NCBI GenBank assembly: GCA_977017645.1
Contig: OZ360224.1
Location: 80,538,001-80,602,000, forward strand
DNA from: Torpedo marmorata
Lineage: Eukaryota
Length of the DNA: 64,000 bases
Reading direction: 5' to 3'
Below, piece by piece: positions 1-51,340 of the stretch (position 1 is its first letter; each line of letters begins with the position of its first letter). The position numbers and the translations under genes were made by a program. Below the pieces are notes generated by a model. It was not told the DNA's origin, made no database searches, and was given only the letters and a program-made list of their open reading frames with translations.

Positions 1-2260
1 CGAAAACAACTTATCCCAATCCACACATTCTAGATCCTTTCTCATTTCCTCAAAATTGGCCTTTCTCTAATTTAGAATCTCAACCCGAGGCCCAGACCTA
101 TCCTTCTCCATAATTAACTTGAAACTAATGGCATTATGATTACTGGACCCTAAAATATTCCCCTACACATACTTCTGTCACCTGTCCTGCCTCGTTCCCT
201 AACAGGAGATCCAATATTCCACTCACTCTAGATGGTACCTCTAAATATTGATTTAGAAAGCTTTGCTGAACACATTTGACAAACTCCAAGCCATCCAGCC
301 CTTTTACAGTATGGGAGTCCCAGTCAATATGTGGAAAGTTTAAATCTCCTACTATCACAACCTTATGTTTCCTGCAGCTGTCTACTAGCTCTCTACAGAT
401 TTGCACCTCCAATTCTCGCTGACTATTGGGCAGTCTATAATACAACCCCATGAGTGTGGTCATATCTTTACCGTTCCTCAGCTCCACCTATATAACCTCA
501 GTAGACGAGCCGCTGGTCTGTCCTGCCTGAGCACAGCTGTGATATTTTCCCTGACGAGCAATGCCACTCCTCCCCCTTTCATCCCACCCCCCATTCTATC
601 GCATCTAAAGCAACGGAAGCTTGGAACATTGAGCTGCCAGTCCTGCCCTTCCTTCAACCAAGTTTCACTAATGGCCACAATGTCATAATTCCACGTGCCA
701 ATCCACGCTCTAAGCTCGTCTGCCTATTCTACAATACTCCTTGCATTGAAATAGATGCACTTTAGAAAATTTCCACCACGTACAACCCGTTGACTTCTAA
801 CGATGCATGCAATTTTCACATCATCTTTTCCCTCCTCCACTCCTTTATCTGCTCTGGCACTCTGGTTCCCATCCCCCTGCAAATCTAGTTTAAACCCACC
901 GGAGCAGTACTAGCAAACCTTCCCGCAAGGATATTAGTCCCCCTCCAGTTCAGATGCAAATCGTCCTGTCAGAACAGGTCCCACCTTCCCTGGAAGAGAG
1001 CCCAGTGATCCAGAAACCTGAAGCCCTCCCTCCTGCACCATGTCTTTAGCCACGTGTTAAGCTGCATTATCCTCCTTTTTCTAACCTCATTAGCACATGA
1101 CACGGGTAGCAATCCTGAGATCACAACCCTGGAGGTCCTGTCCTTCAACCTCGCACCTAACTCCCTGAACTCTCCTTGCAGGACCTCCTCGCCCTTCCTA
1201 CCCACGTCATTGGTCTCTATATGGACCACAACATCTGGCTGCGCACCAACCCTCCTGAGAACGCCATGAACTTGATCTGAAGTATCACGGACCCTGGCAC
1301 CAAGGAGGCAACATACCATCCAGGACACTCGATCTCTTCCACAGAACCTCTTATCTGTCCCCCTAACTATGGAATCCCCTATCACTACAGATTGCCTCTT
1401 CTCCTCCCTTCCCTTCTTAGCCACAAGGCCAGACTCTGTGCCAGAGACCTGATCTCCGTGACTTGTCCCTGGTAGGTCATTTCTCCCCCCCCCCCCCCCC
1501 CTATCAGTATCCAAAACGGTATACGTGTTATTGAGGGGAACTGCACTGCCCTGCACTGACTGTCGGTTACCTGTCCCTCTCCTGACTGTCACCCATCTAC
1601 TTTCCTCCTGCCTCCTAGGTGCGACAGCATCCCTGTAACTCCTGTGCATCACCCCCTCTGCCTCCCGAATGATCAGGAGTTCATCCAACTCCAGTTCCCT
1701 AACTCGGTTGATGAAGGGCTCAAGCCCGAAACGTCAGTTATGTATTTCTACCTTTGCTACATAAAAGACACTGTTTGACCTGCTGAGTTTCTCCAGCATT
1801 GTGTTTTTTACTTCAACCACGGTGTCTACAGATTTTCGTGTTTTATTTCCCTAACTCGGTTTGTCAGGAGCTGCAGTTGGATGCACTGCTCGCAGATGAA
1901 GTCGTCAGGGATACTGTTGACTTCCCTTATAATCCACATCCTGCAAGAGGAGCTTGTCCCTGCCCTTGCTGCCATTCCCACTATCTATGAAATAGGAACA
2001 AAATGTTCAACAAACCTGTCCTTACCTGGCCTCAACTCCTGCATCTTCTCCTCAGTCTCTGCTCACCAAAGCCTCTCGAGTCAAAGCCTCAAAGTCCCAC
2101 TCCTACCCTGAGCCGCTCACACACTGGCTGCTCTGCTTGTGCTTCCCCTCTTTTATTGGCTAGAATTAATTGGCCAATGGAGAGATTCAAAAGAACACTT
2201 ACCGATCCCGCTGCCAATTTATCTGCTTGGAACCTGCTTACTTTGCCCCTCGCTCGCAGC
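1..2260 (-). mobile_element. CR1 LINE, 5' part: ORF1 (Zn-finger/leucine zipper + SGNH esterase) and start of ORF2 (APE endonuclease); degenerate
   Basis: ORF 969-1688 has VVIGDSIVRG...VVVHIETNDVG (CR1 esterase). The upstream part from the ATG at 1975 reads SSSCRMW...FICEQCIQLQLL. ORFs 140-678 have AISETWL, GGGVALLV, VGDLNFP, ILDLLL (APE). Frameshifts and a premature TGA before DDLHLN. Confidence 0.9.
1710..1846 (+). mobile_element. Solo Penelope pLTR fragment inserted in CR1 ORF1
   Basis: Near-identical to 42785-42922; flanked by direct repeat TTCCCTAACTCGGTT (1695-1709, 1847-1861). Confidence 0.9.
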
Positions 2261-3989: not shown

Positions 3990-4340
3990 ATGGCACACGC
4001 GGTGGAGCTGCTGCCTCACAGCTCCAGTCACCCACGTTTGATCCTGATCCCAGGGGCTTGTCTGTGGCTGCACAAGTTTCCTCTGAGTGCCCTGGTTTTC
4101 TTCCACATCTCAGAACTGTTGGTTTAGGAGTTTAATTGGCTAATGTACTCTTTCCCTAGTGTTGAGGTAAGTGCAGTGTTGGGTAGTTGGAGGGAGGAGG
4201 AGGTGGGGTAAGATTTGATAAGAATGTGTGGATAATAAAAACAAATGGGATGAGTATCAGATTGGTGTTAAAGGGTCTTTGATGGTCAGCGCAGACTCTG
4301 TGGGCCAAACGGACCCATTTCTGTGCTGCATGACTTTATA
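3990..4340 (+). mobile_element. Older V-SINE-like copy
   Basis: GGCACACGCGGTGGAGCTGCTGCCTCACAGCTCCAG head; tail GGGCCAAACGGACCCATTTCTGTGCTGCATGAC. Confidence 0.65.
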
Positions 4341-5199
4341 ATCACTCACCAAGCGTAAAAGAAAATCTTTCCTTTATCTTCATTATTTCAAAAACAAACA
4401 GTATTAGAGCTTCTCCAGATGTTGGATGCATCCTTGAATGTGTGTTGGTTTAAAGCGATGGTTTCCATTCCCAACATCTGTCTGATACATCTGCAAGGCA
4501 TGTCCTTTGTGGTTTAACATACTGCGTTGGCCAAATCTGTACACAGTAAATTAACTATCCTCAGGCTACAGTTATTATATAAATTTGTCATTACATGTTG
4601 ACTCTTGTTCTCTGTGTTCCTTTTTATAAAAATGCAAATTAAGTTTGTAGTGCAGACAGATAAAACCATAATTTCATGAAATATGCATTGGAACATCCAG
4701 ATCACTGATTGTATGTTCCCAGCAAGATTTCCACTGTCGATATTTGCAGATTATTTTTTCCCCAAAAAAAATAATGCATTGCCTCACATTTACCTAATTT
4801 ATTCCCACTATATTGCACTTGTCACTGAGCTGATCTTATCTCAAAGTCCTTTAGTCCTCAAATATCATTCATGTTAACAAATTTTGCAAATATTTTGTAA
4901 ATATTTTTGCAAATTGAGCAGTATATACCAATATTGTAATTTCCCCTCTCCTTTTGCATCTCCCTTGGTAACAGCTGATGTTGTATTGACTGTCATGGTG
5001 AGTGTCCTGCACTTATTTCAACCATGCTTCCTCTGTGATGGCAACAATATTATATTCCCACCTGCTGATCAAGACTGAATTCCTCTGGCTTATTAATCAG
5101 ACTTCTTGCATGAAAATAGATGCAATTCGGCCTTGCATTCTTCCCCTGTGCCTTATCAAACCCATACCTGCTCTGCCCACTGGACTGACTTAGTTTTCC

Positions 5200-5900
5200 T
5201 TCTATATTTGACCGCCAGCTATACATCTAATCTGTGTTCTATTTCCCTGCCAAATTAGTTTAAACCCTCCCCATCAGCACTGACAGACCTCCATGCAAGG
5301 ATCTTGGACCCTTTCCAGTTCAGTTGTATCTTGTATCAGTCACAGCTACCCAAGAAACTGTCCCAGTAATCCAGAAATCTAAATCCCTCCCTCCTGCACC
5401 ATTGTTTCCACCACAAATTCATCTGACTTCTTATACTCAATATCAGTATAAGATCAATATCACACTGAAAGTAAAAAAGGGGGCACGGTTAGTGAAGCGG
5501 TTAGCGCAACGGTATTGCAGCACCAGTGACCCGGGTTAGAATCCTGTAAAGAGTTTGTACATTCTCCCTGTGATCTGCGTGGGTTTCCTCCAGGTGCTCC
5601 GGTTTCTTCCACCCTCCAAAAACGTACGGGGTTTGTAGGTTAATTGGTGTATTTGGGCAGCATGGGCTTGTGGGCCTGAAGGTCCTGTTACCATGCTGTA
5701 TCTCTAAATTTAAATTAAATTAAATTACAATTAATCCAGAGATTGTAACCTCAAAGTTTCTGATCTTCAGTTTATGACTCAACTTCTTAAATTCAATAGG
5801 CAGGATCTCATTCCACTTCTTATCTTTGTCATTAGTATCAATGTGAACCACAACCTCTGGCTGTGAACCCTCCCTGTTCAGAATGCCCTGCAATCATTCG
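5200..5900 (-). mobile_element. Degenerate CR1 ORF1 fragment interrupted by a SINE
   Basis: Diverged match to 880-1260 (TAGTTTAAACCC..., CCCAGTAATCCAGAAATCTAAATCCCTCCCTCCTGCACCA). Confidence 0.65.
5479..5727 (+). mobile_element. tRNA-derived SINE (HE1/V-SINE-like)
   Basis: GGGGCACGGTTAGTGAAGCGGTTAGCGC head, shared core, (TAAAT)n tail. Confidence 0.85.
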
Positions 5901-8117
5901 TTGTTCTTGGCTAGGTCAAATATAAAAATAAATTCCAAAGATTAAATAAAGAACCAAGGGATAGCTAAAGAAAGAGAAGGACCTATAATTGTCCACAAAA
6001 GGTAACCCGAATTTGTGGGAGAGGGGGATGTGGGCAAGACTAAGATTGAAATATACAGGCCAGACCCAGTGAAGGAAAACTGATTTCTTCCCATAAAGGA
6101 GGTGGAGAAACAAGGAATTGGGGCAATATACCAACATGGATCAAGAGCTGAATATCAGACAGAAAACTGTGGCAATAAACAGCTCTTTCTCAGGATGGCA
6201 AGCTGTGACTGATGGGGTCCGACAGGAATCAGTGCTTCAGTTAGTTACAGTGTTCAATTAGCAATTTGACAGCAAATTTCTTCATACTTCTTCCTTGCTT
6301 TCCTAATTTCATTCCAATACTTTCTACACTTTTCCAGGTTTTCTGTTCTTTTGTGTTCTATTTATCAAGTAATCTCTCTTTTGCCATATCTTGCCCTCTG
6401 TGCTTGTCATTTGGCAGTACTCTAGATCCAGGTTGCCCAACTCTCTGTAGGTGCAGAAATCCATAATGCACTACACTTGGCCAGTGGCTTTCTACGATAC
6501 AGTCCATTCCAATAATCCTGACTTGGTTGACATTGAAATTACGTTCTAGATGACGTGTGTTACTCAGCCAGGTGTACATGACAATCGCAGGAATGCCATC
6601 GAGCTGATGGGAAATTTCACTGCATTGTCTGGTGGACATTCACCCCTTAAGTCTGTGTTGGAGCATTGACTGACAATCCCAGTGGGAAGCTGAATTTGCT
6701 GCAGATACAACTGGATGTTGCATAAAGCAGCAAATAACCTGAAGCAGTAGTGTGGCTCAAACTGCTGCAGAGTTGTGAATGGAACACTTGGGTGTGTGGT
6801 GACCCCAGTCGCAGGATTCACAAAGACAGAAAACCACTTTAACATAGAAACATGTCGCTGTTGAGAAATAAGGGATGATTTAGTCACTCAATGTGGATTA
6901 GTGGTATTTGTAAAGTTGCATGATTACTCAATGTGGTGTTTTTCGACTTAACAGTGTGATGAGTATCATGTTCTATTCCCATCCGTATGAGTCCTCTGTA
7001 TTTCTGCAATACATATTCCCATTGATAAAATAAAGTTTCAGTTGATAGGAAATATGCATTTACCATCATCGTTTGCAACAAGCATAAGTATTTACAAAAC
7101 TAATTGAAAAGGTGATCTCATTATTAAATTGCCTGAACACTGTGGGTTTGTGACAATTTGGATACACCTGAATGGAGTGTAAAAGACCAGCCATGCTTCC
7201 TAATGCAATGCTGTGCCAATAGAGTGGTAAGACAAGTAAATGCTGTGCTGTGCACTTTGCAGACAGGTGATGTAGACTAAACCGCTATACTTTTTATTAA
7301 ATTCACCTAATTCCAAAAGTGAAAGATCAAAAATTGCAGTGGTTCTTGGCAGCACTGATCCATTTGGTCAACTGACTCAGCTCCTGATATGCTGTATTAG
7401 GAGGTGAAACCTCAAGTCCTATACCATTACACAGAAACCCCTTGCCTCTGTCAGATTCAGATGGTGGGCTTGACTGATTCCCACTGGCCTAACAGCAACA
7501 GAGGATTGAGTCCAGACTGACTTACATAATACAATTTACTCTTGAGGAATAATACGTAAATTAAAGGATGAATTATGTAAGATGAGCTTCCTAGTCAACC
7601 ATATTGATCGACTTGTCCAGAAAACTATAATGGAAAGTGAGCTACAGTGATATTTATCGAGGCTTGTGTTAAAGTGTTTCTGGAGTGGGAAATCAAGTAT
7701 TTGTGTAGAGGGATGCATATAACAGAGTTGTGTGGCATCTAATTCCACCCATTAGATAACTTCATTGGAACCCATTATTTGGTCTCTGTCTGAGGACAGG
7801 TGTAAGGAAATGTATCTTCTCACCTGGATGCACAAATCACTTTTAATGTAAATTAGTCACTGCAAGTATGGAATACACTGCTGAGATATAATAGCTGGGA
7901 CTTTGTATCGACATTCAAGAACTAGCATCTCAAAATCTATAAAATTTGCAATGTTCCAATGATAAAATGATTCCCCTTGCTACAGTTATTAGGGTTCCAT
8001 TTTAAACACATCCTCAACCTAAAAAATAGCAAGTGATGTGCACCGGAGGAAGACATAGTGATGCTTCCAGGGAGAGGTTCTCTTTTCACTTGGTTCTGTG
8101 GCCTGGTTATTAACATA

Positions 8118-8572
8118 CAGTAAAACCCCTGGTTTCCGGCACCTACGGGGATTGGTAGATGGTGGATAAGTGAATTTTCTGGTTGCTTGAGATTGCATGT
8201 TGCGTGATTGCCCGCGCATACTAGCTCCCGACACCCCGGCCGCCCGCACATACTAACTCCCGACCGCCCGCGCATACTAACTCCCGACACCACAGGCCGC
8301 ATCCAAGTTCCCAACGCCAAGGGCCGCATCCGACCTCGGGCTCCAAGCAGGAGCGGGGACGTCGGGCTCCCGGCAGGAGCAGGGATCTCAACCACTTTGG
8401 AGACCCCTACTCTAGGAAAGGTAGAGTGCGGTATTGTTTTGACTTACGATAATTTCGACTTACGATGCGAGTTCCGGAATCAAACCCCATCGTAAGTCGG
8501 GGTCTACCTGTATTTACTTTCCGTGATTTCTTTTGCCGGTTGCTTGAATTCCGGATAACAGGGGTTTTACCA
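8118..8572. mobile_element. Tc1/mariner (pogo/Tigger-type) MITE with nested second Tigger-like terminus
   Basis: TIRs CAGTAAAACCCCTGGTTTCCGG (8118-8139) and CCGGATAACAGGGGTTTTACCA (8551-8572), flanked by TA; internal end CGTAAGTCGGGGTCTACCTG|TA at 8491-8512. Confidence 0.8.
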
Positions 8573-9514
8573 TATAATGTATGGCATAGAAACTGATTGA
8601 AAATCAATGCCAACATTTCTGAGAAAAGATAATACAACTTTGTAGAGTTAATGCCTCTGGTAAAGATGACAATGGCCAAGAGATGTTGTAATCGCCTCAT
8701 TGCTCTTGACATAAGAACAGGAGAACCAGCAAATCTTTCAGCTCCAGATCATTGGCCAAAAAGAGTTCTATTCAAAATTGTGCTCCCTGGGTGTTGGTGA
8801 AGGATGCAATTTGCCTTCTAGTGCCTGCCTACACTTACGCATGAAGAATGTGCTATTGGATTAGCTATCAACTGAGTTAGATGAGAAATTGAAAAGAACA
8901 AAGTAACATTTTACAAAGAGTAATTTTTCTTTCTGCAGATTGTGAAAAGTGTTACTGGTGTTAAATTTTTCCATCCTCCACTCAGCCCTTCTGCCTGATC
9001 TCTGACATTGAGGAAAATGTACCCATAGAGCTCACGGAAAGCTTGGGCCTGTTTTGTAACTCATTCTGCTGACTTACTGCCTCGCCTGCCATTCTCATCC
9101 AAACCCCAGTTCCTCTGGTCTTCCTGCACTCCATTGCTATTTTCTTGACAAACAGTAGCCTGGATTTGAAAGTAATAAAACTAATGAGAGAATACCAGTA
9201 AAGCACTTACCAAGTTATAAGCGCTTTGTTGTATTTTACAAAATTATATATGTTGAGAACCTAAAGTTGTATTTCATCCAATAAAGGTAATTGGCCATGA
9301 TTAGCAATTGTACCTTAACATAATCTGATTTTGATGGAATGGAAAATTCAGTTTAATTCTGAAGAAAAGTTGACACAGTCTCTTTAAAAAAAAGAAATGA
9401 ATCTGGGCTGCCAACTAGATAGCATTAAATATCTTGCTGAGTTACTTTTAATGAAGCTTACTTGCTTTGGATTGGCTGAACTTTCTAATATGGTTTCAAT
9501 TGTTCTGACCACAG

Positions 9515-11515
9515 GTATGTGACTGGTGCAAGCACATCCGACATACAAAAGAATATCTCGACTTTGGAGATGGAGAGCGACGGCTACAATTCTGCAGTGC
9601 AAAATGCCTCAATCAGTACAAAATGGACATTTTTTATAAAGAGACACAGGCCAATCTTCCTGCTGGCTTGTGTAATACGGTGCACCCTCCAGTAGAAAAA
9701 AAGTCCGATAACACAGCCGTGCAACTACTAACTCCGGAGTCTTGGAACATGCCACTGACTGATGCTCGGAGAAAGCCTCCATCTCCCGTGACACCTTCCT
9801 CTCAGTCTCAAGTCCCCATCCCTTCTGCATCTACTGCCCTCTCCCCGTCTGATCCTGCCAGTAGTTCTGCTGCCAAACTCCACACTCCAATCTCGAAGCC
9901 AATAGCTGCAAATGAGAGTCCAAACGTTCCTCCGATCCAGCTTCAGCAGCCAGCCAACATTGTGCCTCCAGTGGGTGTCCCTCCAGGTAATCCCTCCATG
10001 GTCATGACAAATCGAGGACCTGTCCCTCTGCCAGTATTCATGGAACAGCAGATGATGCATCAGATCCGTCCACCATTTATCCGAGGACCACATACTCCAA
10101 GCCCAAATAGTCCCCTGTCAAACCACATGATTTCAGGTCTTGGTCCCCCATCGGGTGGTTCCAGGACCATGGGTCCTAATTCAATCCCGATGCACAGGCC
10201 AATGCTTTCACCACATCTCCATCACCCATCAGCACCCTCAGTGCCAGCCAATCATCAAGGGTTACTTCCCCCGGCAGCACCCTTACCTAATGTTTCATTT
10301 CCACCTGTTAATATGATGCCAAATAGCCACATGCATGTCCCACACCTTTTAAACTTTGGAGTGCCATCACTTGCACCGTTAGTTCCTCCTCCGACTCTCT
10401 TGGTGCCCTATCCTGTCATTGTTCCATTGCCTGTGCCCATTCCAATCCCCATTCCAATTCCTCACATGTTTGACTCCAAGAACACCAATGGGATTTCCGG
10501 TAGTGCTGAGAGTTTCATTCCAAGCACAACTAACAATGAAGATGACACTAAAGAGCCAAACAGTTCTTTGGCATCGAATCTCGGGCAGCAGGGAGCTTCC
10601 AAGCCTATTAAAGCCTCAACTAACTGCTCAAGCCATTCTTTGAACCAGCCATCCATGCTTCTTGACACCAGCAGGAGTGAGATTGTCGATCTAACTGTCA
10701 AGCCTAATGGTCCAATTAAAAGTGATTTTTCTTTCTCTGATGGAGTGGACTTTCTACACGATGAGGTGATAGACTTGACCATGAGCCACAGAAGCAGACT
10801 TAATCACGTTGGTCACAAACCTCTACATGCTTCTGTGAAAGTTGAAAATGAAGGCAGAAGTGTTGTAGATTTGACTCTTTCCAGTCCGGATAAACGGAAC
10901 TGTATTGACTGTAGGGATTTTCCTCATTTGAACCCTATCGAAACAAAGGTGTTATCTTGCAGCGGTGCTTCCCACTGCAGCACTCTCCAGCTAAATTCAG
11001 GAAGCTCGGGAGGTGACTCGGATCAAACACCTTGTAATCTGGTTATGAATGGCACAAAGAACGTGGACCTTTCCCACTTCTCAGAAAACCCTTCAGACCA
11101 GCAGCAGCAGCAGTCACAGCCACCGCCACAGCAGCAGCCACCGCCGCCGCCGCAGCAGCAGCCGCAGCAGCAGCTGGAGGAGATCGCTGTCAGCGAGCTG
11201 GAGTCAGTCAAAGAAAACAACTGCACATCAAACTGTCAGCTGGAGTTAGAGGCAGGTAAGAAGGCCTCAATTGAATCACCCCTGGGTGGGGTGGACAGGC
11301 AGGATGTAAATCATAATCCTGCAGATGAGGACCATGCATATGCCTTGAGAGTAGTACCCAAGACGGGCTGCTTGATTCAGCCTGTGCCAAAAGCGACTGA
11401 AAAGACTGCCATAGCACCCTGCATAACCTCAACGCCAATACTCAACACAGGGCCCGTGGACAGTGAGCCGCCACTGAAACGCAGATGTCTCCGGATTCGA
11501 AACCAGAACAAGTAA
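9515..11515 (+). CDS. SOBP: Sine oculis-binding protein homolog, large last coding exon (second FCS zinc finger, Pro-rich region, SIM-like motifs, C-terminal NLS)
   Basis: Acceptor ...TTCTGACCACAG|GTA at 9514/9515, in frame with ORF 9623-11515. Reads [49 protein letters not shown]...[25 protein letters not shown]...[15 protein letters not shown], recognised as vertebrate SOBP. Upstream exons not seen in the window. Confidence 0.97.
11099..11173 (+). repeat. Coding CAG/CCG trinucleotide tract (polyQ/polyP) in SOBP
   Basis: Encodes [25 protein letters not shown]. Confidence 0.9.
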
Positions 11516-16179: not shown

Positions 16180-16345
16180 TAAACAAGGACATCTGTAAAT
16201 GCTGTTGAGTGCAATATAAAAACATGCTGGAGAAACTCAGCAGGTCATGTAACATCCATAGAAAGTAAAGGGCAACCAACGTTTCAGGCCTGGGCCCTTT
16301 GTCAGGTATATGTGTGACCTGCTGAGTTTCTACAGCACATTTAAT
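16180..16345 (-). mobile_element. PLE pLTR derivative with short fold-back arm
   Basis: ATGCTGGAGAAACTCAGCAGGTCA...AACGTTTCAGGCCTGGGCCCTTTGTCAGG followed by inverted TGACCTGCTGAGTTTCTACAGCA. Confidence 0.75.
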
Positions 16346-18722: not shown

Positions 18723-19333
18723 CACTTCACTTGTACATCCAGAGGACTTATTTACTGCATCCGGTGCTCCCTTTGTGGCTTTCTATACATTGGAGAGACC
18801 GGTCGTAGATTGGGAGATCGCTTCGCTCAGCACCTCCGCTCGGTTCGCAACAACAGCGACCTCCCAGTGGCCAACCATTTCAATTCTGGGTCACACTCCC
18901 ACACTCACATGTCTGTCCATGGCCTCATGTACTATCCCACCCAGACTACCCGCAAACTGGAGGAACAACATCTCATATTCCGTCTCGGCACTCTCCAGCC
19001 AGATGGAATTAACATTGACTTTTCTGCTTTCCACTAAACCTGCTTGTTGTTCCCTTCCCCTCCCCCCTCACCTGTCCTTCCTGTGTTTCTCCAGCTACCC
19101 AGCCATCCCTCCTCCCCCTCTTTGCTACTGTCCCCTCCCTCCTTTCTCCACCTATTATCTCCTGCCTTTCCCACCCCCCTTCCCCCCTCACTCCTTTGTT
19201 CGGACGTCTGCCGGCATTTTCTCATACTTTGAAGAAGGGCTCAAGCCTGAAACGTCGGTTATGTATTTCTACCTTTGCTACATAAAAGACACTGTTTGAC
19301 CTGCTGAGTTCTCCAGCTTTTGTGTTTTTTACT
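18723..19333 (+). mobile_element. 5'-truncated Penelope-like insertion (GIY-YIG end + pLTR)
   Basis: Near-identical to 45938-46543; flanked by TCATGACAGTAG (18711-18722, 19333-19344). Confidence 0.92.
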
Positions 19334-19578: not shown

Positions 19579-19751
19579 CATTTTCTCATACTTTGAAGAA
19601 GGGCTCAAGCCTGAAACGTCGGTTATGTATTTCTACCTTTGCTACATAAAAGACACTGTTTGACCTGCTGAGTTCTCCAGCTTTTGTGTTTTTTACTCAT
19701 GACAGTAGATGTGAGTGCGACAGGGCGGTAGTCATTGAGGCAGGACACTGT
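19579..19751 (+). repeat. 173-bp local duplication of 19215-19387 (pLTR end + LINE flank)
   Basis: Direct copy at offset 364, sharing private variants (GAGTTCTCCAGCTTTTGTG). Confidence 0.9.
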
Positions 19752-22519: not shown

Positions 22520-22635
22520 TGTCAGTCTCGATAAAAGGTCCCGACCAAAAACCTCGACTGACCATTTCTACCTATGGGTGCCGCCTGACCTGCTAGGTTG
22601 CTCAAGATTTCAGCATCTGAAAGTTTTGTGTTCTG
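22520..22635 (+). mobile_element. Old PLE pLTR-derived repeat
   Basis: CTCGATAAAAGGTCCCGACCAAAAACCTC...GCCTGACCTGCTAGG. Confidence 0.6.
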
Positions 22636-23318: not shown

Positions 23319-23557
23319 AAAAACACAAAAATGCTAGAGGAACTCAGCAGGTCTCGCAGCTTCCATAGGAGGTAAAGATATATGACCAACGTTTCGGGCC
23401 TGAGCCTTCCTCATTCACACACCTTGAGGAAGGGCTCAGGCCCGAAACGTCGGTCATATATCGTTACCTCCTACAGACGGTGCAGGATCTGTTGAATTCC
23501 TCCAGTATTTCTGTGTTTTTACTGCAATCACAGCGTCTGCAGACTTCTGTGTTTCAC
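23319..23557. mobile_element. Non-autonomous PLE fold-back element (two inverted pLTR arms)
   Basis: Arms about 23319-23413 and 23425-23520 are reverse complements; TSD TCCATGT(G/T)TATAGT at 23305-23318 and 23558-23571. Confidence 0.9.
23421..23454 (+). ncRNA. Minimal hammerhead-like ribozyme motif (PLE type)
   Basis: ACC-TTGAGGA-A-GGGC TCAG GCCC-GAAA-CGTC-GGT: variant core, stem II, palindromic ACGU stem III, GUC cleavage triplet, 3-bp stem I. Confidence 0.6.
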
Positions 23558-41414: not shown

Positions 41415-42522
41415 ATGTAACTCATGATTTGTGTGTGTACAGGGCAGTATAAGTACAAGTGACTCCCAACAAGGTTAAACTGTTTGTGCTTATCATAAAC
41501 GTGATGGGACACCAACAGAAATGTGAAGGAAAATTGCTCTATTTATGATTGTTATAATTGCAGAAATCAGTTCTATTAATAAAGCATTTGGAAAGGTGGT
41601 AAATAAGAACATCTGCAGATGCTGGAGTCTAGTGCAATACACAAAAGTGCTGGAGAATCTCAGCAGGTCACGCAGCATCCATAAGAAGTAAAAGGCAGTT
41701 AGCATTTCAGGCCTGAGCCCTTCATCAAGATTTTCAAAAATCAGGCAGATGCCTGAATAAAAAGTTGGCAGAAGGGGAAGCACAGTCTAACAGGTAAGAG
41801 GTGATAGGTAGATACAGGTGGGAGGGGGAAGTAGAGAAAGAAGCTGAGGTGATAGTGGAGAGGGCAGAGGTCTAAAAATGATAGCTCTTTGATAGAGGAA
41901 GGAAAGGAAGGGAAGGGGCTGGTGAGCTGGAGGAGAGGGATGAGGGAAAGGGTGAGATCGGAGGGAGGGGGTTAATGGAATTGGAGAAGTCACTGTTCAT
42001 GCCGTCTGATTGCAGACTACCCAGATGTAATATAAGGTGTTGTTCCTTCAGTGTGTGGGTGGCCTTATCTTGGCAGTATATGAAACCATGTCAGTGTGGC
42101 AATGATGTGTGGATTGAAGTGGCTGGCCACTGGAAGGTCCTTGCTGTTGCAGCAGACAGAGCGAAGATGGTCAATGAAGCGATTTCCTCCAATCTCCACC
42201 CAGTCTCGCCAAAGTAGATGAGGCCACATCAGGAGCACTGGATGCAGTAAATGACCCCCAACAGATTCAGAAGTGAAGTGTTGCTTCACTTGGAAGCAAC
42301 AGTGGTCAGGGAGGAGGTGTAAGTGCAAGTGTAGCACTTCTTGGGGTCACAGGGGTGAGTACCAGGGGATTGGTGGGAAGAGATGAGAAACGCGGTCATA
42401 GAGGGAGCAAGCCCAGTAGAAAGAAGAGAAGGGAAGATGTATCTGGTAAAAAACACAAATGCTGGAGAAACTCAGCAGGTCAAACAGTGTCTTTTATGTA
42501 GCAAAGGTAGAAATACATAACC

Positions 42523-42550
42523 GACGTTTCGGGCTTGAGCCCTTCATCAA
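42523..42550 (-). ncRNA. Minimal hammerhead-like motif in inverted pLTR
   Basis: Reverse complement TTGATGAAGGGCTCAAGCCCGAAACGTC. Confidence 0.55.
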
Positions 42551-42784
42551 AGTATGAGAAAATGCCGGCAGGCATCCGAACAAAAGAGTGAGGGGGGAAG
42601 GGGGGTTGGCAAAGGCAGGAGATGATAGGTGAAGAAAGGTGGGAGGGGACAGCAGCAAAGAGGGGGAGGAGGGATGGCTGGGTGGGTGGAAAAAACAGGA
42701 AGGATTCACCTATCATCTCCTGCCTTTGCCACCCCCCCCCCCTTACTCCTTTGTTCGGACACCTGCTGGCATTTTCTCATACTT

Positions 42785-42812
42785 TTGATGAAGGGCTCAA
42801 GCCCGAAACGTC
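42785..42812 (+). ncRNA. Minimal hammerhead-like motif in 5' pLTR
   Basis: TTGATGA-A-GGGC TCAA GCCC-GAAA-CGTC. Confidence 0.55.
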
Positions 42813-42964
42813 GGTTATGTATTTCTACCTTTGCTACATAAAAGACACTGTTTGACCTGCTGAGTTTCTCCAGCATTTGTGTTTTTTACTTCAACCACTG
42901 TGTCTACAGATTTTCGTGTTTTACTTCTGAATTCTACAACAACTCTGTGAAAACTCTTTGAGGG

Positions 42965-45900
42965 ATGCCTACCCTGAAGAAGTTCGCCTTTGCTCTCCGA
43001 AGGGAGTTCTGTGGGATTCTCTCTCACTGCTCCCCATCTGCAACCCCTGCTGCTCTCAAGCTCTACGACCATGTACTCACCCAGACTCGATTCCACAGCC
43101 ACGCTGCCTTCCTTGCTACTTGCCTCCGCCGCCATCTTGTGCCTCGTGGCTTCCAGCTTCGATTCCAGGCCTCGCAGTTTGGCCCTCGCAAGGACCTCAG
43201 GTACCTCCACAGCATCGACTGCTGCTCTCTCCGCTTCTCCCAACGACTCCTCCGCACCACCCTCACCTCGATGCGGAGATACTAGCGGCAACTTGCCCTC
43301 TACCTGCCACAGCTCCGGACCTCGCTGGCCATGGCCTGCAGCGGACCCCTCCTATACTACATCCGCTGCCGGATCCACGCGTTCAGCCGCCGGCTCTACA
43401 CTCACCTGGCGTCCAACAAGAACCATAAGCTTGCCTCCCTCAAGACTGCAGCCTCTGCGACCCATCTCGGCCTCGGCCGCCTGCCCTCTGGAGCTCCCAA
43501 CGCCATGGCCGCCGACCCGATCCCTGGTCCCGGCCGCTGTCTCACCGGAGCTCCCAATGCCACAGCCGCCCACTCCTACCCGCGCCCCGGGCGCCAACAC
43601 GACGGTACTCCTGACGCCACGGCCGCCCACTCCAGCCCGGGCCCTGAGCACCTACTCACCAGAGCTCCCGATGCCTCCACTGCCGACTCCCGACACAGAC
43701 TTTTACCTGCTGGAGCCTCCCACGCTGACTGCCACTGGAGTCCTCATCTCGCTACTGGATCCCACTTACCTATCCCCCTCACTACTCCTTCCCTATCCTC
43801 CTACACCTCTCACTACTCCACCCCCATCTCCCCCTCTCTGCCCCCTCTCCTCCCCAACCCTCAGACCTCATCCCCCCCTCTCTCTGGCTACCCTCCCTAC
43901 CCCACTCTCCCACCCTCCTACACCCCCCACCTCCGACCCCCCCTCCCCCCACCAACACCCCTCCTCCTCCCTCCAACCTCCCCCACCCTCCACCTTCCCC
44001 CTCTGACCTCCCCAATCCTCCCCCTCCCCCCAACACCCTCCACAACACCGATTCCCCACTCCAACCCCGGCTTGGTTTTTACTATCCCCTCCGACCTTCC
44101 CCTCTCTGAGACGGAGCGCTCGGTCCTCAGTAGAGGCCTCACCTTCGTCCCCCTCCGCCAACACCTCAACGAGTTCTGCGCACGCCGTGATGCCGAACTC
44201 TTCTTCCGTCGCCTCCGCCTCCGGGCTCACTTTCATGACCGTGACTCTCCACCCCCCACCCAAGACCCTTTCTCCCACTTCAAGCCTTCTTCCTCTTCCT
44301 GGACACCTCGTCCTGGCCAGCTGCCCGCTCTGGACCTTTTTATTTCCAACTGCCGCCGAGGCATCAACCGTCTCAACTTCACCACCCCCCTCTCGTATTC
44401 CAACCTCACCTCCTCAGAACGGTCTGCCCTCCACTCTCTCCGCAACAATCCCAACCTCACCATCAAACCCGCAGACAAGGGCGGTGCGGTTGTGGTCTGG
44501 CGCACTGACCTCTACCTTGCCGAGGCCAGTCGACAGCTCTCAGACACCTCCTCCTACCGACCCCTCCCACAGGATCCCACCACTGCACATCAAGCCACTG
44601 TCTCCAACACCATCTCCGACCTCATCACCTGCGGTCACCTCCCCTCCACGGCCACCGACCTCATTCTCCCCCACCCCCGCACTGCCCGTTTCTACCTTCT
44701 ACCCAAGATACACAAACCCAACCATCCAGGCAGACCCATTGTTTCTGCCTGCTCCTGCCCCACCGAACTAGTTTCATCTTACCTTGACTCCATCTTTTCT
44801 CCCTTGGTCCAATCCCTCCCCACCTACATCCGCGATACCTCACATGCCCTCCATCTCCTCAATGACTTCAGATTCCCTGAACCGGACCGCATTATCTTCA
44901 TCATGGATGTCCAATCCCTTTATACCTCCATCCCCCACACAGAAGGTCTGAAAGCACTTCGCTTCTTCCTGGACAAAAGACTCGACCAGTCATCCTCTAC
45001 CACCACCCTCCTCCGCCTGGCAGAACTTGTCCTCACTCTCAATAACTTCTCCTTCAACTCATCCCACTTCCTCCAAATCAAAGGAGTAGCCATGGGTACC
45101 CGCATGGGTCCCAGCTACGCTTGCCTGTTTGTGGGCTTTGTAGACCAATCCATGCTGCAAGCCTACACAGGCAAGACCCCTCATCTCTTCCTCCGTTATA
45201 TCGACGACTGCATCGGGGCTGCCTCATGCACCCGCGATGAGCTTGTCAACTTCATCCACTTCGCATCCAACTTCCACCACGATCTCAAACTCACCTGGTC
45301 CATCTCCGATAACACTCTCCCCTTCCTGGATCTCTCTGTCTCCATCTCAGGAGACAAGCTTTCCACCGACATTTACTACAAACCCTCCAACTCCCACAAC
45401 TATCTGGACTACACTTCCTCACACCCTGTCCCCTGCAAAGATTCCATCCCCTTCTCTCAATTTCTCCGCCTCCGCCGCATCTGTTCCCAAGATGAGGTGT
45501 TCCAGTCCAGATCTTCTGAAATGTCTGCCTTTTTCCACAAACGTGGCTTCCCTTCCACCACTATCAACTCAGCCCTCACCCGCATCTCCTCCGTTTCCCG
45601 CTCATCTGCCCTGGTCCCCTCTGCCCCCAGATGCAACAAACATAGAATCCCCCTCATCCTCACCTACCACCCCACCAGCCTCCGCATCCAACACATTATC
45701 CGCCGGAATTTCCGGCACTTACTACAGGATCCCACTACCAGACACATTTTTCCTTCTCCTCCCCTCTCGGCCTTCCGTAGGGACCACTCCCTCTGCGATT
45801 CCCTCGTGCACTTATCCCTCCCCACCCATCGCACCCCCGGCACCTTCCCCTGTGCCCGCAGGAGGTGCAACACCTGCGCCCACACCTCCTCCCTCACCAT

Positions 45901-46252
45901 GGTCCGGGGCCCCAAACAGGCCTTTCAAGTGAAACTACACTTCACTTGTACATCCAGAGAACTTATTTACTGCATCCGGTGCTCCCTTTGTGGCTTTCTC
46001 TACATCGGAGAGACCGGTCGTAGATTGGGAGATCGCTTTGCTGAGCACCTCCTCTCCGTTTGCAACAACAGCAACCTCCCAGTAGCCAACCATTTCAATT
46101 CCGAGTCACACTCCCACACTCACATGTCTGTCCATGGTCTTATGTACTATCCCACCCAGACTACCCGCAAATTGGAGGAACAACATCTCATTTTCCGTCT
46201 GGGCACTCTCCAGCCAGATGGCATTAACATTGACTTTTCTGCTTTCCACTAA
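42965..46252 (+). pseudogene. PLE reverse transcriptase + GIY-YIG endonuclease ORF with one in-frame TAG (43283-43285)
   Basis: ORFs 42965-43285 and 43331-46252 are in the same frame. Motifs IKPADKGGAVVV, FYLLPKIHK, MDVQSLYTSI, GVAMGT, RYIDD, Cys linker CARRRCNTC, LIYCIRCSLCGFLYIGETGR...RFAEH. Confidence 0.93.
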
Positions 46253-46437
46253 ACCTGCTTGTCGTTTCCTTCCCCTCCCCCCTACCTGTCCTTCCTGTTT
46301 TTTTCCACCCACCCAGCTATCCCTCCTCTCCCTCTTTGCTGCTGTCCCCTCCCTCCTTTCTCCACCTATCATCTACCTTTGCCACCCCCACCCCCCTCAC
46401 TCTTTTGTTCGGACACCTGCTGGCATTTTCTCATATT

Positions 46438-46465
46438 TTGATGAAGGGCTCAAGCCTGAAACGTC
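46438..46465 (+). ncRNA. Minimal hammerhead-like motif in 3' pLTR
   Basis: TTGATGA-A-GGGC TCAA GCCT-GAAA-CGTC. Confidence 0.55.
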
Positions 46466-47309
46466 GGTTATGTATTTCTACCTTTGCTACATAAAAGACA
46501 CTGTTTGACCTGCTAAGTTTCTCCAGCATTTGTGTTTTTTACTTCAACCACGGTGTCTACAGATTTTCGTGTTTTACTACAAGATGTATCTGGTGCAGGA
46601 AATTGCCGAGAATTATATACTGGATGCAGAGGCTGGTGGGATCGTAGGTAAGAACAAGGGAACCCCTATCCTTGTTGCATCTGGGGACATGTGTGCGAAA
46701 TAGACTCCCACCTGTATCCACCTCTTTCCTCTTACCTGTTTGTTTGTGCTCCTCCCCCTCCCTGCCCCCCACCCCTACCTTTTTATTCAGCCATCTGCCT
46801 GATTTCCGACATTCCTGATGAAACGCTCAGGCCTAAAACGTGGGCTGCCTTTTAATTCCGAGGGATGCTGCGTAAATGCTGAGTTTCCCCAGCACTTTTG
46901 TATACTGCTCTAATTTGGAAAGGTGGTATTTTTCCAAATGTATCTCCGAAAGTGGCTTCCCTCAGCCACAATCAGTGAAAAGTGGGTCCTTATGATGCAC
47001 GAACACTAGCGTGGGCCTGAAGCCCCAGATCATGACTGATGTGAACGGGTGCCGCTTCTAGCAGCAGCCTCCCCGCCCAGCTCAGAAAGATGCTAAACCT
47101 GCTCAGTAGTCTTTATTTATTCTTGTATTCAGTCCCAAATCGGATTTGACTGTTAATCACTATTTTAACATTTGAATACTGAAATTTAAAGAGTAATTGT
47201 TTGAAACCCCTCTCCAGTTGTTCTCGCTCCCTACAATGTTGATGACTGGAGAAGGGCAATTTAAGCCACTTTAGTAACACAGAGTATCTCTTCACTTCGA
47301 AACATGCTC

Positions 47310-47860: not shown

Positions 47861-49693
47861 CATATCCCGATAGAACCTGCGAATTCAAGGCGTTATTTAT
47901 GGAGTGTTTGAAAAGGAAGCGGTATCGCTTTCCAACTCAACTACTGAATACAACACGTACATTCGAGGTTATTTAAATTTAGCCTTCGTGTAAGACAGGC
48001 GATATCAGTTTGGATAGACGCTCGGTAAACAGGCTCCTGACTTTGAAGCGAAGATGGACAAAAATGGTTCGGGCAAAGGGTGAAAACACTCTTAGACTAA
48101 AATAAACATTGCGTCTTCATGTGGCCGTTTTATTGACCTTATGATGGAGAAATAAAGGCAAGGGTCTAAGTAAAATTCTTTGAAATTTTATGTTACAAAG
48201 TTTAGTTTTTACATTAACAATGGTGAAATTCCACAATAAATACCTTGGACTCAATCTTCTTAAAATCTAAACAAAATTGAAAAGCACAGTTTTTTTTTTT
48301 GGCACCTCGGAGTATGGAAGATAAATACATCTGCACTGTGGTATTTGTTTCATCTGTGTGTGCCAGTCATCTCCAGTTTGCAATTAGACTCTGATTAATA
48401 TTGAACACTATCTCCACCCCAGTTCCTAATGTTTCTTTTTGAAGGATGAAAGAACTGCCTTAACTTACTGCTTGTGAACTTACATTGTTCTTGAATGCCT
48501 GCTTCTTTGTTTTCTCATTATTAAGACACACCACACACACACACACACAATTTTCTTATATCTGGTAATGTTGAGTGGTTTCTGAACATTTATGTGATCT
48601 GTTTTAACAGAACTTTACTTGTATATTCAAATGCAGTTATGTAATTGTAACAAGACCATGTAGTGTTTTTATATCTTATTTCAGTATTCTTCCTGAACAT
48701 TTTATAGTATTATTTATTTTAAAATGTTTAAAATAAAGCAAAATGTTTGCATAAAACCAATTGAATCTTTCAATCCATGCAAACAGAACCAAGAAGTTGG
48801 GTGTATAACAGCTCTCAGTAATGGTGGGGCCATGGCATTATAAGAACCATGAAAAATATATATCTTTAGACAAGGAAAGTGTGGCATTAAATTAATTTTA
48901 AGATCTACCATGTCATTCATTTCATCAAAACAGAAAGTTATGGGATGTTTCTTTCTGTGTAATTTAAAAAAATGTTTTTGTGTTTTTCTCCCTTCATGTA
49001 TTACATATGAAGCCAGAAGAAATAAATGCTTAAAAATCCATGTACATTCCTAAAACAGTGGGTGAATATAATGTTGGTCCAAACTTCAGTATGCCTCTTT
49101 GAAAGCATCTTACAATGAGCTTTGCCTATACATTAGCTGTTTAATGGTTGTTCAATCAAGAGACATGAGAATCAAGCACATGAGACCTCCACATCTTACT
49201 GGGATTTTGCCAACTATTCCTATATCTTGGTATAAATTGATCCAGTAACAACCTGCATTTATAAAGCCCCATTTAACTTGGAATTTAACACACAGGTGCA
49301 TGTCACCAAGATGCATGAGAAAGATAGATAGCCAGCTGAATATTTAGAGGAGGTGATCATAAATGGGGTTATGAGGTACAAGGAAATTCCAGTGCGGGGC
49401 CTAAATAGCTGTAAGCTTGACCGTGAGTGATGGAGATCTGCGATTCTCAACCTGAATGTAGAAATGGAAGCAAACAAAATATAGCCAATGCTGAAAATTC
49501 AACTAATTAACAAAAAAGGATGCTGGCAACAGTCAGCAAATTAGATGGGAAAAGGAGAGATGTCAACTTTTGAAGATTGTGGAAATTTCAGATTACAACT
49601 AAGAATTTTAATTTAATGGATTTGGCAAGCCGATGGGAGGAGGATAGTTGGCTGGTCGTGTAGTGAAGACCAGAGTCATTGAGCTATACAGAA

Positions 49694-50582
49694 GTAAATC
49701 ACGAAAATCTGTAGACACCGTGGTTGAAGTAAAAACACAAAATGCTGGAGAAGCTCAGCAGGTCAACCAGTGTCCTTCATGTAGCAAAGGTAAAGATACA
49801 TAACCGACGTTTCGGGCTTGAGCCCTTCATCAAAGTGTGAGAAAATGCCGGCAGGCGTCCAAACAAAAGGGTGGGGGGGAAGGGGTGGCAAAGGCAGGAG
49901 ATGATAGATGGAGAAAGGAGGGAGGGGACAGCAGCAATGAGGGGGAGGAAGGATGGCTGGGTGGGTGGAAGAACTGGAAAGACAGAACAGGGGGAGGGGA
50001 AAGAAAAGGCTAGCAGGTTTAGTGGAAAGCAGAAAAGTCAATGTTCATGCCATCTGGCGGGAGAGTGCCCAGACGGAAAATAAGATGTTGTTCCTCCAAT
50101 CTGTGGGTGATCAGGGTGCGATGGTACACAAGACCATGGACGGACATGTGAGCACGGGAGCGTGACTCGAAATTGAAATGGTTGGCCACTGGGAGGTCGC
50201 TGTTGTTGCAAACGGAGCAGAGGTGCTGAGCGAAGCGATCTCCCAGTCTGCGACCGGTCTCTCCGATGTATAGAAAGCCACAAAGTTCTCTGGAAGTACA
50301 AGTGAAGTGTTGCTTCGCTTGGAAGGCCTGTTTGGGGCCCCGGAACATGGTGAGGGGGGAGGTGTGGGCGCAGGTGTTGCACCTCCTACGGGCACAGGGG
50401 AAGGTGCTGGCGGGGGTGCGATGGGTGGGGAGTGATGAGTGCACAAGGGAATCGTGGAGGGAGCGGTCCCTGCGGAAGGCCAAGAGGGGAGGAGAAGGAA
50501 AAATGTGTCTGGTGGTGGAATCCTGTAGTAAGTGCTGGAAATTCCAGTGGATAATGTGTTGGATGCCGAGGTTGGTGGGGTG
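49694..50582 (-). mobile_element. 5'-truncated Penelope-like insertion with internal deletion
   Basis: Reverse complement of 45665-46578, lacking the IYCIRCSL segment; TSD GAGCTATACAGAA at 49681-49693 and 50583-50595. Confidence 0.92.
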
Positions 50583-51340
50583 GAGCTATACAGAATGGAA
50601 TCTTTCCCTTCAGTCCAACTCATCCAATCTGACGAGGTTGTTCATTCATAAAAGTCCCATTTGCCTGCTTTTGCCCCACATCCCTCCAAACCTTTCCTAT
50701 CCAAGCACCTGTCTAAATGTCTTTTAAATGTCACATTTATACCCACCTCAACAGCTTCCTCTGGCAGCTTATTCCTATATCCACCACCCTCTGTGTGAAA
50801 AAGTTGCCCCTTTTAAATCTCACGTTAAACCTGTGCGCTCTAGTTTTAGACTCTCCTAACCTGGGGAAAAGACTGACAATTCATTTTATCTATGTTCCTT
50901 GTCATTTGTATTTCTTTATAAGATAACCCCTCAGCCTCCTGTGCCCCAGGGAAAAATGTCCTTGTCTATCCAGCCTCTCCTTATAACTCAAATCCTCCAG
51001 TCCTGGTAACGTTCTCGTGAATCTTTTCTGCACCCTTTCTGCTTTACCAGGGAGACCAGAACTGCACATAGTAATCAATATGTGGCCTTACCAAAACCTT
51101 TTACATATGTAACATGAAGTTCCAACTCCTCTACTCAGTGCCTTGACAAATGAAGGCAAGCATGCCAAAAACCTTTTACACCACCCTGCCTAGCCTTGTT
51201 GCCTCCTTCAGAGTACAATGTACCTGTACCTCTCTGTTCCAGAGCACTTTCCAGAATCCTGCAATGTAGTGTTACATTTCATCTCCCATTCCTTTGCCCA
51301 ATTTCCCCATTGATCTAAATCCAGTTGCAAACTTAAACAA
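50583..51340 (-). mobile_element. CR1 3' fragment (target of the PLE above)
   Basis: CCACCACCCTCTGTGTGAAAAAGTTGCCCC...GACCAGAACTGCACA...ATGAAGGCAAGCATGCCA. Confidence 0.8.

What the first reader, a model, noticed from the sequence alone, without database searches (positions are those of the whole stretch)
42523..46465. Atypical minimal hammerhead-like ribozymes in the pLTRs, over a dozen copies in the window
Seen: YTGANGA-A-stem II-GAAA-CGTC recurs at about 1708, 19229, 19593, 23424, 42785, 46438 (+) and 16280, 23389, 41703, 42523, 49806 (-), plus degenerate copies (22529, 28409, 38500, 46815, 47445, 52830, 61481). The stem II loop varies (TCAA/TCAG/CCAG) while the stem and GAAAC persist. Known: PLE pLTRs carry minimal type I hammerheads that may act as dimers via a palindromic stem III. 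Inferred: this variant (U at position 3, extra A, loop-less ACGU) processes PLE RNA, with the 5' and 3' pLTR copies pairing as a dimer.
Basis: partly seen in the sequence, partly recalled or inferred. Interest (0 to 1): 0.7.

Follow-up and report, generated by a model that had tools for sequence, protein, structure and literature searches.

The report
Wobble-core hammerhead of Penelope retrotransposon
The repeated motif is the tiny self-cutting-RNA motif already known from the ends of Penelope-type jumping genes; here about 138,000 genomic matches carry an altered core base that likely weakens it, and sampled copies run straight through the predicted cut site, so the motif is real but mostly ordinary.

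Summary
The motif is real: 8 intact copies in the window (0.04 expected) and 10 decayed ones; 147,355 genome-wide, 94% with U3. It lies in the pLTRs of a Neptune-type Penelope-like element. The extra A and loop-less ACGU are standard for these hammerheads, and a U3-G8 example is already in Cervera 2014, Fig. S3. This scan noted the same U3 core elsewhere in this genome before (e1-9947845, e1-9979019).
Added here: U3 looks derived by a one-base insertion that re-registered stem I. The core stayed fixed while the flank diverged between U3 subfamilies (0/19 vs 13/38).
The double hammerhead of the window's two copies is predicted far less stable than alternative folds. This fits the anole PLE, where uncut RNA is the template and cutting needs the element's protein. 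Cleavage is untested. New member of a known kind.

The parts
42434..42447 (+). Left copy of 14-bp target-site duplication (last 2 bases overlap the inverted pLTR)
   Evidence: same 14 bases at 46581-46594
42446..42704 (-). Inverted, 5'-truncated pLTR copy; its 3' end is the short end (about +78 from the predicted cut)
42523..42550 (-). Hammerhead motif in the inverted pLTR (U3, extra A, GGGC/GCCC stem II, GAAA-CGTC)
42707..42925 (+). 5' pLTR (truncated upstream copy, 95% identical to the 3' pLTR)
42785..42812 (+). Hammerhead motif of the 5' pLTR; predicted cut after 42812; one extra T in the stem I strand relative to sister copies
42965..46252 (+). PLE ORF from ATG 42965, interrupted in this copy by a stop at 43283-43285 (107 aa, then 988 aa): RT with DKG and YIDD, CX4CxxC linker, GIY-YIG-like endonuclease; 57-nt repeats near 43469-43639
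   Evidence: motifs read from the translation
46253..46578 (+). 3' pLTR with long end (about +112 from the predicted cut)
46438..46465 (+). Hammerhead motif of the 3' pLTR, 3653 nt from the 5' copy; predicted cut after 46465; C-to-T change in stem I and at the stem II base
46581..46594 (+). Right copy of the target-site duplication
41636..42387 (-). Older, opposite-strand PLE (3' part with decayed motif at 41728-41701) into which the young element inserted; it continues at 46593-46689
1708..1735 (+). Intact motif, short young copy that starts at position 3
19229..19256 (+). Intact motif, 5'-truncated young copy
19593..19620 (+). Intact motif, short young copy
23388..23451 (.). Head-to-head pair from an older U3 subfamily (one intact, one damaged motif)
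49806..49833 (-). Intact motif in a 5'-truncated copy (49693-50583)
16278..16305 (-). Damaged motif of a C3 subfamily
46815..46842 (+). Damaged motif of an older C3 subfamily; further decayed homologs near 22529, 28409, 38501, 47445, 52830, 61481

Best explanation
The motif is the minimal type I hammerhead in the pLTR of a very abundant Neptune-type Penelope-like element, with a fixed U3-G8 core; it likely cuts only slowly and with help from the element's protein, and the RNAs that became genomic copies were likely uncut. Shown: the motif, its place in the pLTR, U3 in 94% of matches, a core unchanged between subfamilies, two 3' ends at about +78 and +112, and copies that run through the predicted cut. 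Inferred: the element is read as long tandem RNA; reverse transcription starts at the two internal sites and passes through the motif; the motif mostly sits in an inactive hairpin; occasional assisted cutting (two neighbouring copies pairing by ACGU) trims or turns over long transcripts and does not make the template. Inferred: U3 arose by a one-U insertion that moved the old C3 into stem I. The window's own element is a decayed member.
For: PLE context: RT hit, linker and endonuclease motifs, partial tandem, inverted pLTR, TSD. Published consensus matches: extra base between 9 and 10.1, G10.1-C11.1, palindromic 15.2-16.2. U3 138,458 and C3 5,990 of 147,355. Between U3 subfamilies F5 and F7, 0 of 19 core and stem II positions differ against 13 of 38 flank positions (p=0.002; 0 of 10 catalytic, p=0.03); copies were collected by a downstream anchor. 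Differences fall at position 7, loop II, 17 and stem I. Of 100 copies picked by a 23-mer at +31, 93 span the cut, 0 start within 1 nt of it, 43 end at +73..85 and 57 at +109..113. Anole PLE: two internal RT starts, hammerhead cuts only with protein, uncut RNA is the substrate, no RNA ends at the cut.
Against: No cleavage data and no usable RNA ends. F6 vs F7 alone is not significant (6/38 vs 0/19, p=0.08). The 38-nt flank was chosen after looking, subfamilies were assigned by my own seeds, and a downstream hairpin near +45..+63 is also conserved, so conservation need not mean catalysis. No compensating U3-A8 subfamily exists (1,825 matches with a narrower pattern). The youngest family also has a U-G pair closing stem I. 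A re-ligated circle would give the same copy ends. The short-region tree puts a C3 family (F2) inside the U3 clade. Neptune assignment rests on motifs, not on a phylogeny.
Confidence: 0.55

Rival explanations
1. One reading: the 5' and 3' copies pair through ACGU, both cut, and the unit-length RNA is re-joined into a circle that is copied for more than one round, which creates the pLTRs.
For: A nested double hammerhead can be drawn for every subfamily tested. In 11 of 11 partial tandems with at least 200 nt of upstream copy, that copy is closer to its own 3' copy than to the median of the other 29; it is the closest in 5 of 11. 10 of 14 upstream copies run back into the ORF or off the fetched stretch with no barrier. 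Proposed in print for PLEs.
Against: The same pattern follows from linear tandem transcripts. No 5' ends at the cut (0 of 100 within 1 nt; 0 of 14 upstream copies). Window pair: -8.2 kcal/mol for the double hammerhead against -22.9 for two monomer hairpins and -30.3 for the cofold minimum (C3 controls are also disfavoured, so this does not single out U3). An upstream-initiated transcript would bury the 5' motif in a -351 kcal/mol hairpin with the inverted pLTR. Hammerhead mutants do not affect insertion in the anole PLE in vitro.
Confidence: 0.15
2. The U3 motif no longer cuts. It is kept as a folded signal that the element's protein binds or that positions reverse transcription.
For: U3-G8 persists with no compensating change. 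The monomer minimum pairs the core with its own CGUC-GG into a long hairpin. 5' truncations peak inside the motif: 24 of 100 at -36..-6, 0.98 per 100 nt at risk against 0.20 just downstream and 0.51 just upstream; 15 of the 24 are head-to-head junctions. Insertions near C3 impair a natural hammerhead.
Against: Unpaired catalytic positions (A9, G12-A14) stay fixed. In F5, position 7 is A, which breaks the inactive hairpin and leaves the cleavage-compatible stems as the monomer minimum (one copy folded). Stem I pairing in the hammerhead register is better in the U3 families than in F4.
Confidence: 0.22
3. The motif is a neutral passenger. It is unchanged only because few master elements made all copies.
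For: Individual copies decay freely: 10 of 18 in the window are damaged. Naiad PLEs thrive without canonical hammerheads.
Against: Zero core changes over subfamily splits with 13-17 flank differences in 38; stem I and stem II pairs change on both sides among subfamilies.
Confidence: 0.08

Closest known systems
[quoted passage not shown]
   Same: Type I layout, extra base before stem II, G10.1-C11.1, palindromic CG with no loop III, place in pLTRs, many solo and opposite-strand copies; reported in fish Neptune, Poseidon and Xena elements. Fig. S3 lists a Saccoglossus PLE motif with U3 and G8.
   Different: Their consensus is C3-G8 and their described covariant is U3-A8. Here U3-G8 is the majority state in 138,458 matches, far above the 4,000-9,000 motifs they report for coelacanth and Xenopus (different descriptors). 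No shark or ray is in their Fig. S3 list.
Poseidon of Anolis (PAc), Frangieh et al. 2024, PMC11167929 (read: parts 1-2 of 4)
   Same: Two 3' ends about 34 nt apart downstream of the hammerhead; copies contain the uncut motif; tandem organisation.
   Different: PAc has C3-G8 and its ORF starts inside the hammerhead; here the ORF starts about 150 nt after the cut, and the protein has the Neptune-type CX4CxxC linker.
Natural hammerhead core variants, Perreault et al. 2011, PMC3088659 (sections 8 and 9, passages); PMC7151607 (passages)
   Same: Variants at or next to position 3, including a halophile core written U2a-G2b-U3...G8; insertions near C3 lowered activity in the tested example.
   Different: Those are rare prokaryotic or phage monomers; this one is a dominant retrotransposon motif with no stem III of its own.
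Small hammerhead variants of PLEs that cleave as dimers, Lunse et al. 2016 (not held; only its citation and a review's summary in PMC6765202 were seen)
   Same: Short palindromic stem III, PLE association, dimer cleavage.
   Different: Could not check whether U3-G8 or chondrichthyan examples are in it; this may lower novelty further.

Membership tests
min-HHR of metazoan PLEs | Core boxes U4G5A6N7G8A9 and G12A13A14, A15.1-U16.1, H17 | tested here: met
min-HHR of metazoan PLEs | Watson-Crick 3-8 pair (C3-G8 or U3-A8) | tested here: not met
   U3-G8 in 138,458 of 147,355. One such motif is included in the family's own alignment, so it is filed as a variant member.
min-HHR of metazoan PLEs | Extra base between 9 and 10.1; G10.1-C11.1; stem II | tested here: met
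min-HHR of metazoan PLEs | Palindromic 15.2-16.2, no stem III loop | tested here: met
   CG majority in all subfamilies tallied
min-HHR of metazoan PLEs | Stem I next to the core | tested here: met
   First three pairs formed in 0.91/0.91/0.87 of the 117 youngest copies; either slid register loses at least one pair
min-HHR of metazoan PLEs | Location in pLTRs of a PLE | tested here: met
Hammerhead ribozyme | Self-cleavage after H17 | not testable with these tools
   Only assembled contigs were available
EN+ Penelope-like element, Neptune type | RT plus C-terminal GIY-YIG with CCHH and CX2-5CxxC linker | tested here: met
   RVT_1 E 2.4e-6, 27.8 bits, just under the 29.6 cut-off; the other motifs read by eye; criteria
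EN+ Penelope-like element, Neptune type | Phylogenetic placement with Neptune RTs | not tested
   No reference set was on hand
EN+ Penelope-like element, Neptune type | Partial tandem, inverted 5' copy, 30-40 bp tail at one end | tested here: met
Non-LTR retrozyme | Non-coding head-to-tail repeats with a hammerhead in each unit | tested here: not met
   The two direct copies flank a 3.3 kb ORF region

The most novel reading that the evidence does not exclude
A one-base insertion retuned the ribozyme downwards (U3-G8 with a repaired stem I, later a U-G closing pair), and this attenuation was selected because it leaves the 3' pLTR RNA uncut for reverse transcription. It would then have fed one of the largest hammerhead expansions known, giving a natural series of seven subfamilies in which ribozyme speed can be set against copy number.
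Probability: 0.12. Interest if true: 0.6.

Novelty: new member of a known kind. Interest (0 to 1): 0.27.

Why it matters
What PLE hammerheads do is still open (passage). This genome offers a graded natural series from canonical C3-G8 to U3-G8 motifs in one lineage, so a few cleavage and insertion assays could show whether PLE success goes with faster, slower or no cutting. As a discovery the motif is ordinary: its class, two of its three 'atypical' traits and one U3-G8 example are published.

Tried and rejected
Rfam scan: no hammerhead hit; hairpin-driven miRNA hits rejected. PDB sequence search with the ORF: 0 hits. RNA evidence: no RNA holder listed; 11 runs, all contigs, which cannot show ends; their loose-end consensus suggests the U3 form also occurs in other coded organisms, a weak hint only. 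Coding constraint as the cause of conservation: rejected, the ORF starts at 42965 and an ATG inside the motif stops after 17 codons. A U3-A8 subfamily: rejected. Circle versus linear template from 5'/3' pLTR identity: inconclusive. 5' ends from motif-selected loci: set aside as biased and redone. Tree of about 110 nt, at most 10 copies per subfamily: weak, F2 nests among U3 families. One search found no seed for F1 or F7, so its 'F6' class holds F6 and F7; F5b had no seed. Kinetic data for a single C3U change: not found; two primary papers on the 3-8 pair and Lunse 2016 are not held. No paper with Penelope, Neptune, shark and hammerhead ribozyme together.

Full report
Observation. A strict descriptor finds 8 intact motifs in the window against 0.04 in simulated sequence. 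Genome-wide the pattern TGANGAA-N8-16-GAAACGTY has 147,355 matches against 940 for the reversed control; 138,458 are preceded by T and 5,990 by C.

Context. The finding spans one insertion: a 14-bp duplication (42434-42447, 46581-46594), an inverted pLTR (42446-42704), a 5' pLTR (42707-42925), an ORF and a 3' pLTR (46253-46578). It sits inside an older PLE on the other strand. The ORF starts at ATG 42965, as in most sister copies examined, and has a stop at 43283-43285 here. It encodes an RT, a CX4CxxC linker and a GIY-YIG-like domain (read), the Neptune signature according to PMC8557442 (passages). The host is probably a ray; that comes from earlier AI notes and recall, not from a test.

How atypical. 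In PMC4209133 the extra base before stem II and the loop-less palindrome are consensus features, and Fig. S3 has a Saccoglossus PLE motif with U3 and G8. A halophile U3-G8 core is quoted in PMC7151607. Lunse 2016 could not be read. Only the dominance of U3-G8 is unusual.

Subfamilies. In about 1.2-1.5 Mb of fetched sequence (partly chosen for C3 copies) I saw seven subfamilies, my labels F1-F7. Leaving out C3-selected copies, position 3 is T in 15 of 22 F5, 14 of 17 F6 and 111 of 125 F7, and C in 5 of 6 F4, 6 of 11 F3 and 2 of 4 F2. F4 reads ATAC-C-TGA and F5/F6 read ATACC-T-TGA, one base longer. In F4, stem I pairs poorly in the hammerhead register (0.73/0.27/0.36 of 11 copies) and well in the register that uses up C3 (0.91/0.82/0.73). 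In F5 and F6/F7 the hammerhead register pairs (0.52/0.76/0.60 and 0.91/0.91/0.87). I infer a one-U insertion that freed a position 3 at the price of a wobble. The tree gives only weak support. Between F5 and F7 no core or stem II position changed (0 of 19; positions 3, 7, 9a, 11.1, 17 and the loop were left out) while 13 of 38 flank positions did; F6 vs F7 is not significant. The U3-A8 form is rare (1,825), at the level expected from decay after insertion (inference).

Does cutting shape the copies? I took the first 100 places of a 23-mer 31 nt downstream of the predicted cut (94,534 genome-wide). All 100 end at +73..85 (43) or +109..113 (57); 93 run through the cut; none starts within 1 nt of it and 3 within 3 nt. 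Truncation peaks inside the motif, mostly at head-to-head junctions, which are not independent events. All 11 head-to-head pairs with both members flagged in one locus have one long and one short end, as does the window's element. This matches PMC11167929: two internal RT starts that define the tail, hammerhead cutting only with protein, uncut RNA as substrate. In 30 near-full-length elements, 14 independent upstream direct copies were found; 10 run into the ORF or off the fetched stretch and 4 start at about -103, -11, +9 and +20. Upstream copies tend to resemble their own 3' copy, which fits a circle or a linear tandem equally.

Dimer. A double hammerhead can be written, but for the window's pair it scores -8.2 kcal/mol against -22.9 for two inactive hairpins; C3 controls are disfavoured too (one copy per subfamily). 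The inverted pLTR would bury the 5' motif in any transcript that starts upstream. These are energy-model predictions.

Verdict. A real, conserved minimal hammerhead motif of a known class with a wobble core. Most likely a slow, protein-assisted cutter that does not make the template (0.55); a non-cutting structural signal (0.22), the circle model (0.15) and neutrality (0.08) remain. The scan had already noted the U3 core in this genome; those notes are not independent support. Papers seen: PMC4209133 (main text parts 1-2 of 4, supplement parts 1-2 of 3), PMC11167929 (parts 1-2 of 4), PMC3088659 (sections 8, 9, passages), PMC7151607, PMC8557442 and PMC6765202 (passages), bioRxiv 10.64898/2026.07.22.740005 (part 1 of 5 and passages; its supplements were not seen and may list chondrichthyan motifs).

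Noticed in passing
window 9509-11515 (+): 668-codon open frame matching SOBP (Pfam PF15279, E 1e-95); the element lies about 31 kb downstream on the same strand, intron or intergenic not determined.
   Followed up: no
window 969-1733 (-): 254-codon frame with a GDSL/SGNH-like match, probably ORF1 of a LINE fragment (recall); a short PLE copy at 1708-1845 overlaps its start.
   Followed up: no
window 46505-46530 and all subfamilies, about +40..+63 after the predicted cut: A block that can form a short hairpin is conserved across subfamilies, more than the rest of the flank; a candidate protein-binding or RT-positioning signal.
   Followed up: partly
L173, L184, L201, L207, L212, L221, L223, L233-L236; window 42446 and 46578: Head-to-head insertions have one long (+109..112) and one short (+76..81) 3' end in 11 of 11 pairs, as if the two cut DNA strands prime at different RNA sites.
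   Followed up: partly
window 43469-43639 and L033-L060: 57-nt tandem repeats inside the ORF's N-terminal part vary in number between copies.
   Followed up: no
G000, listing: Many U3-A8 matches have C at position 7, pointing to CpG decay of a further U3 subfamily with C7 that may link F4 to F5/F6.
   Followed up: no
L039 (G000:C40:113652730-113658848): Multi-unit tandem with an extra head-to-tail piece of the pLTR 3' part between upstream pLTR and 5' region.
   Followed up: no
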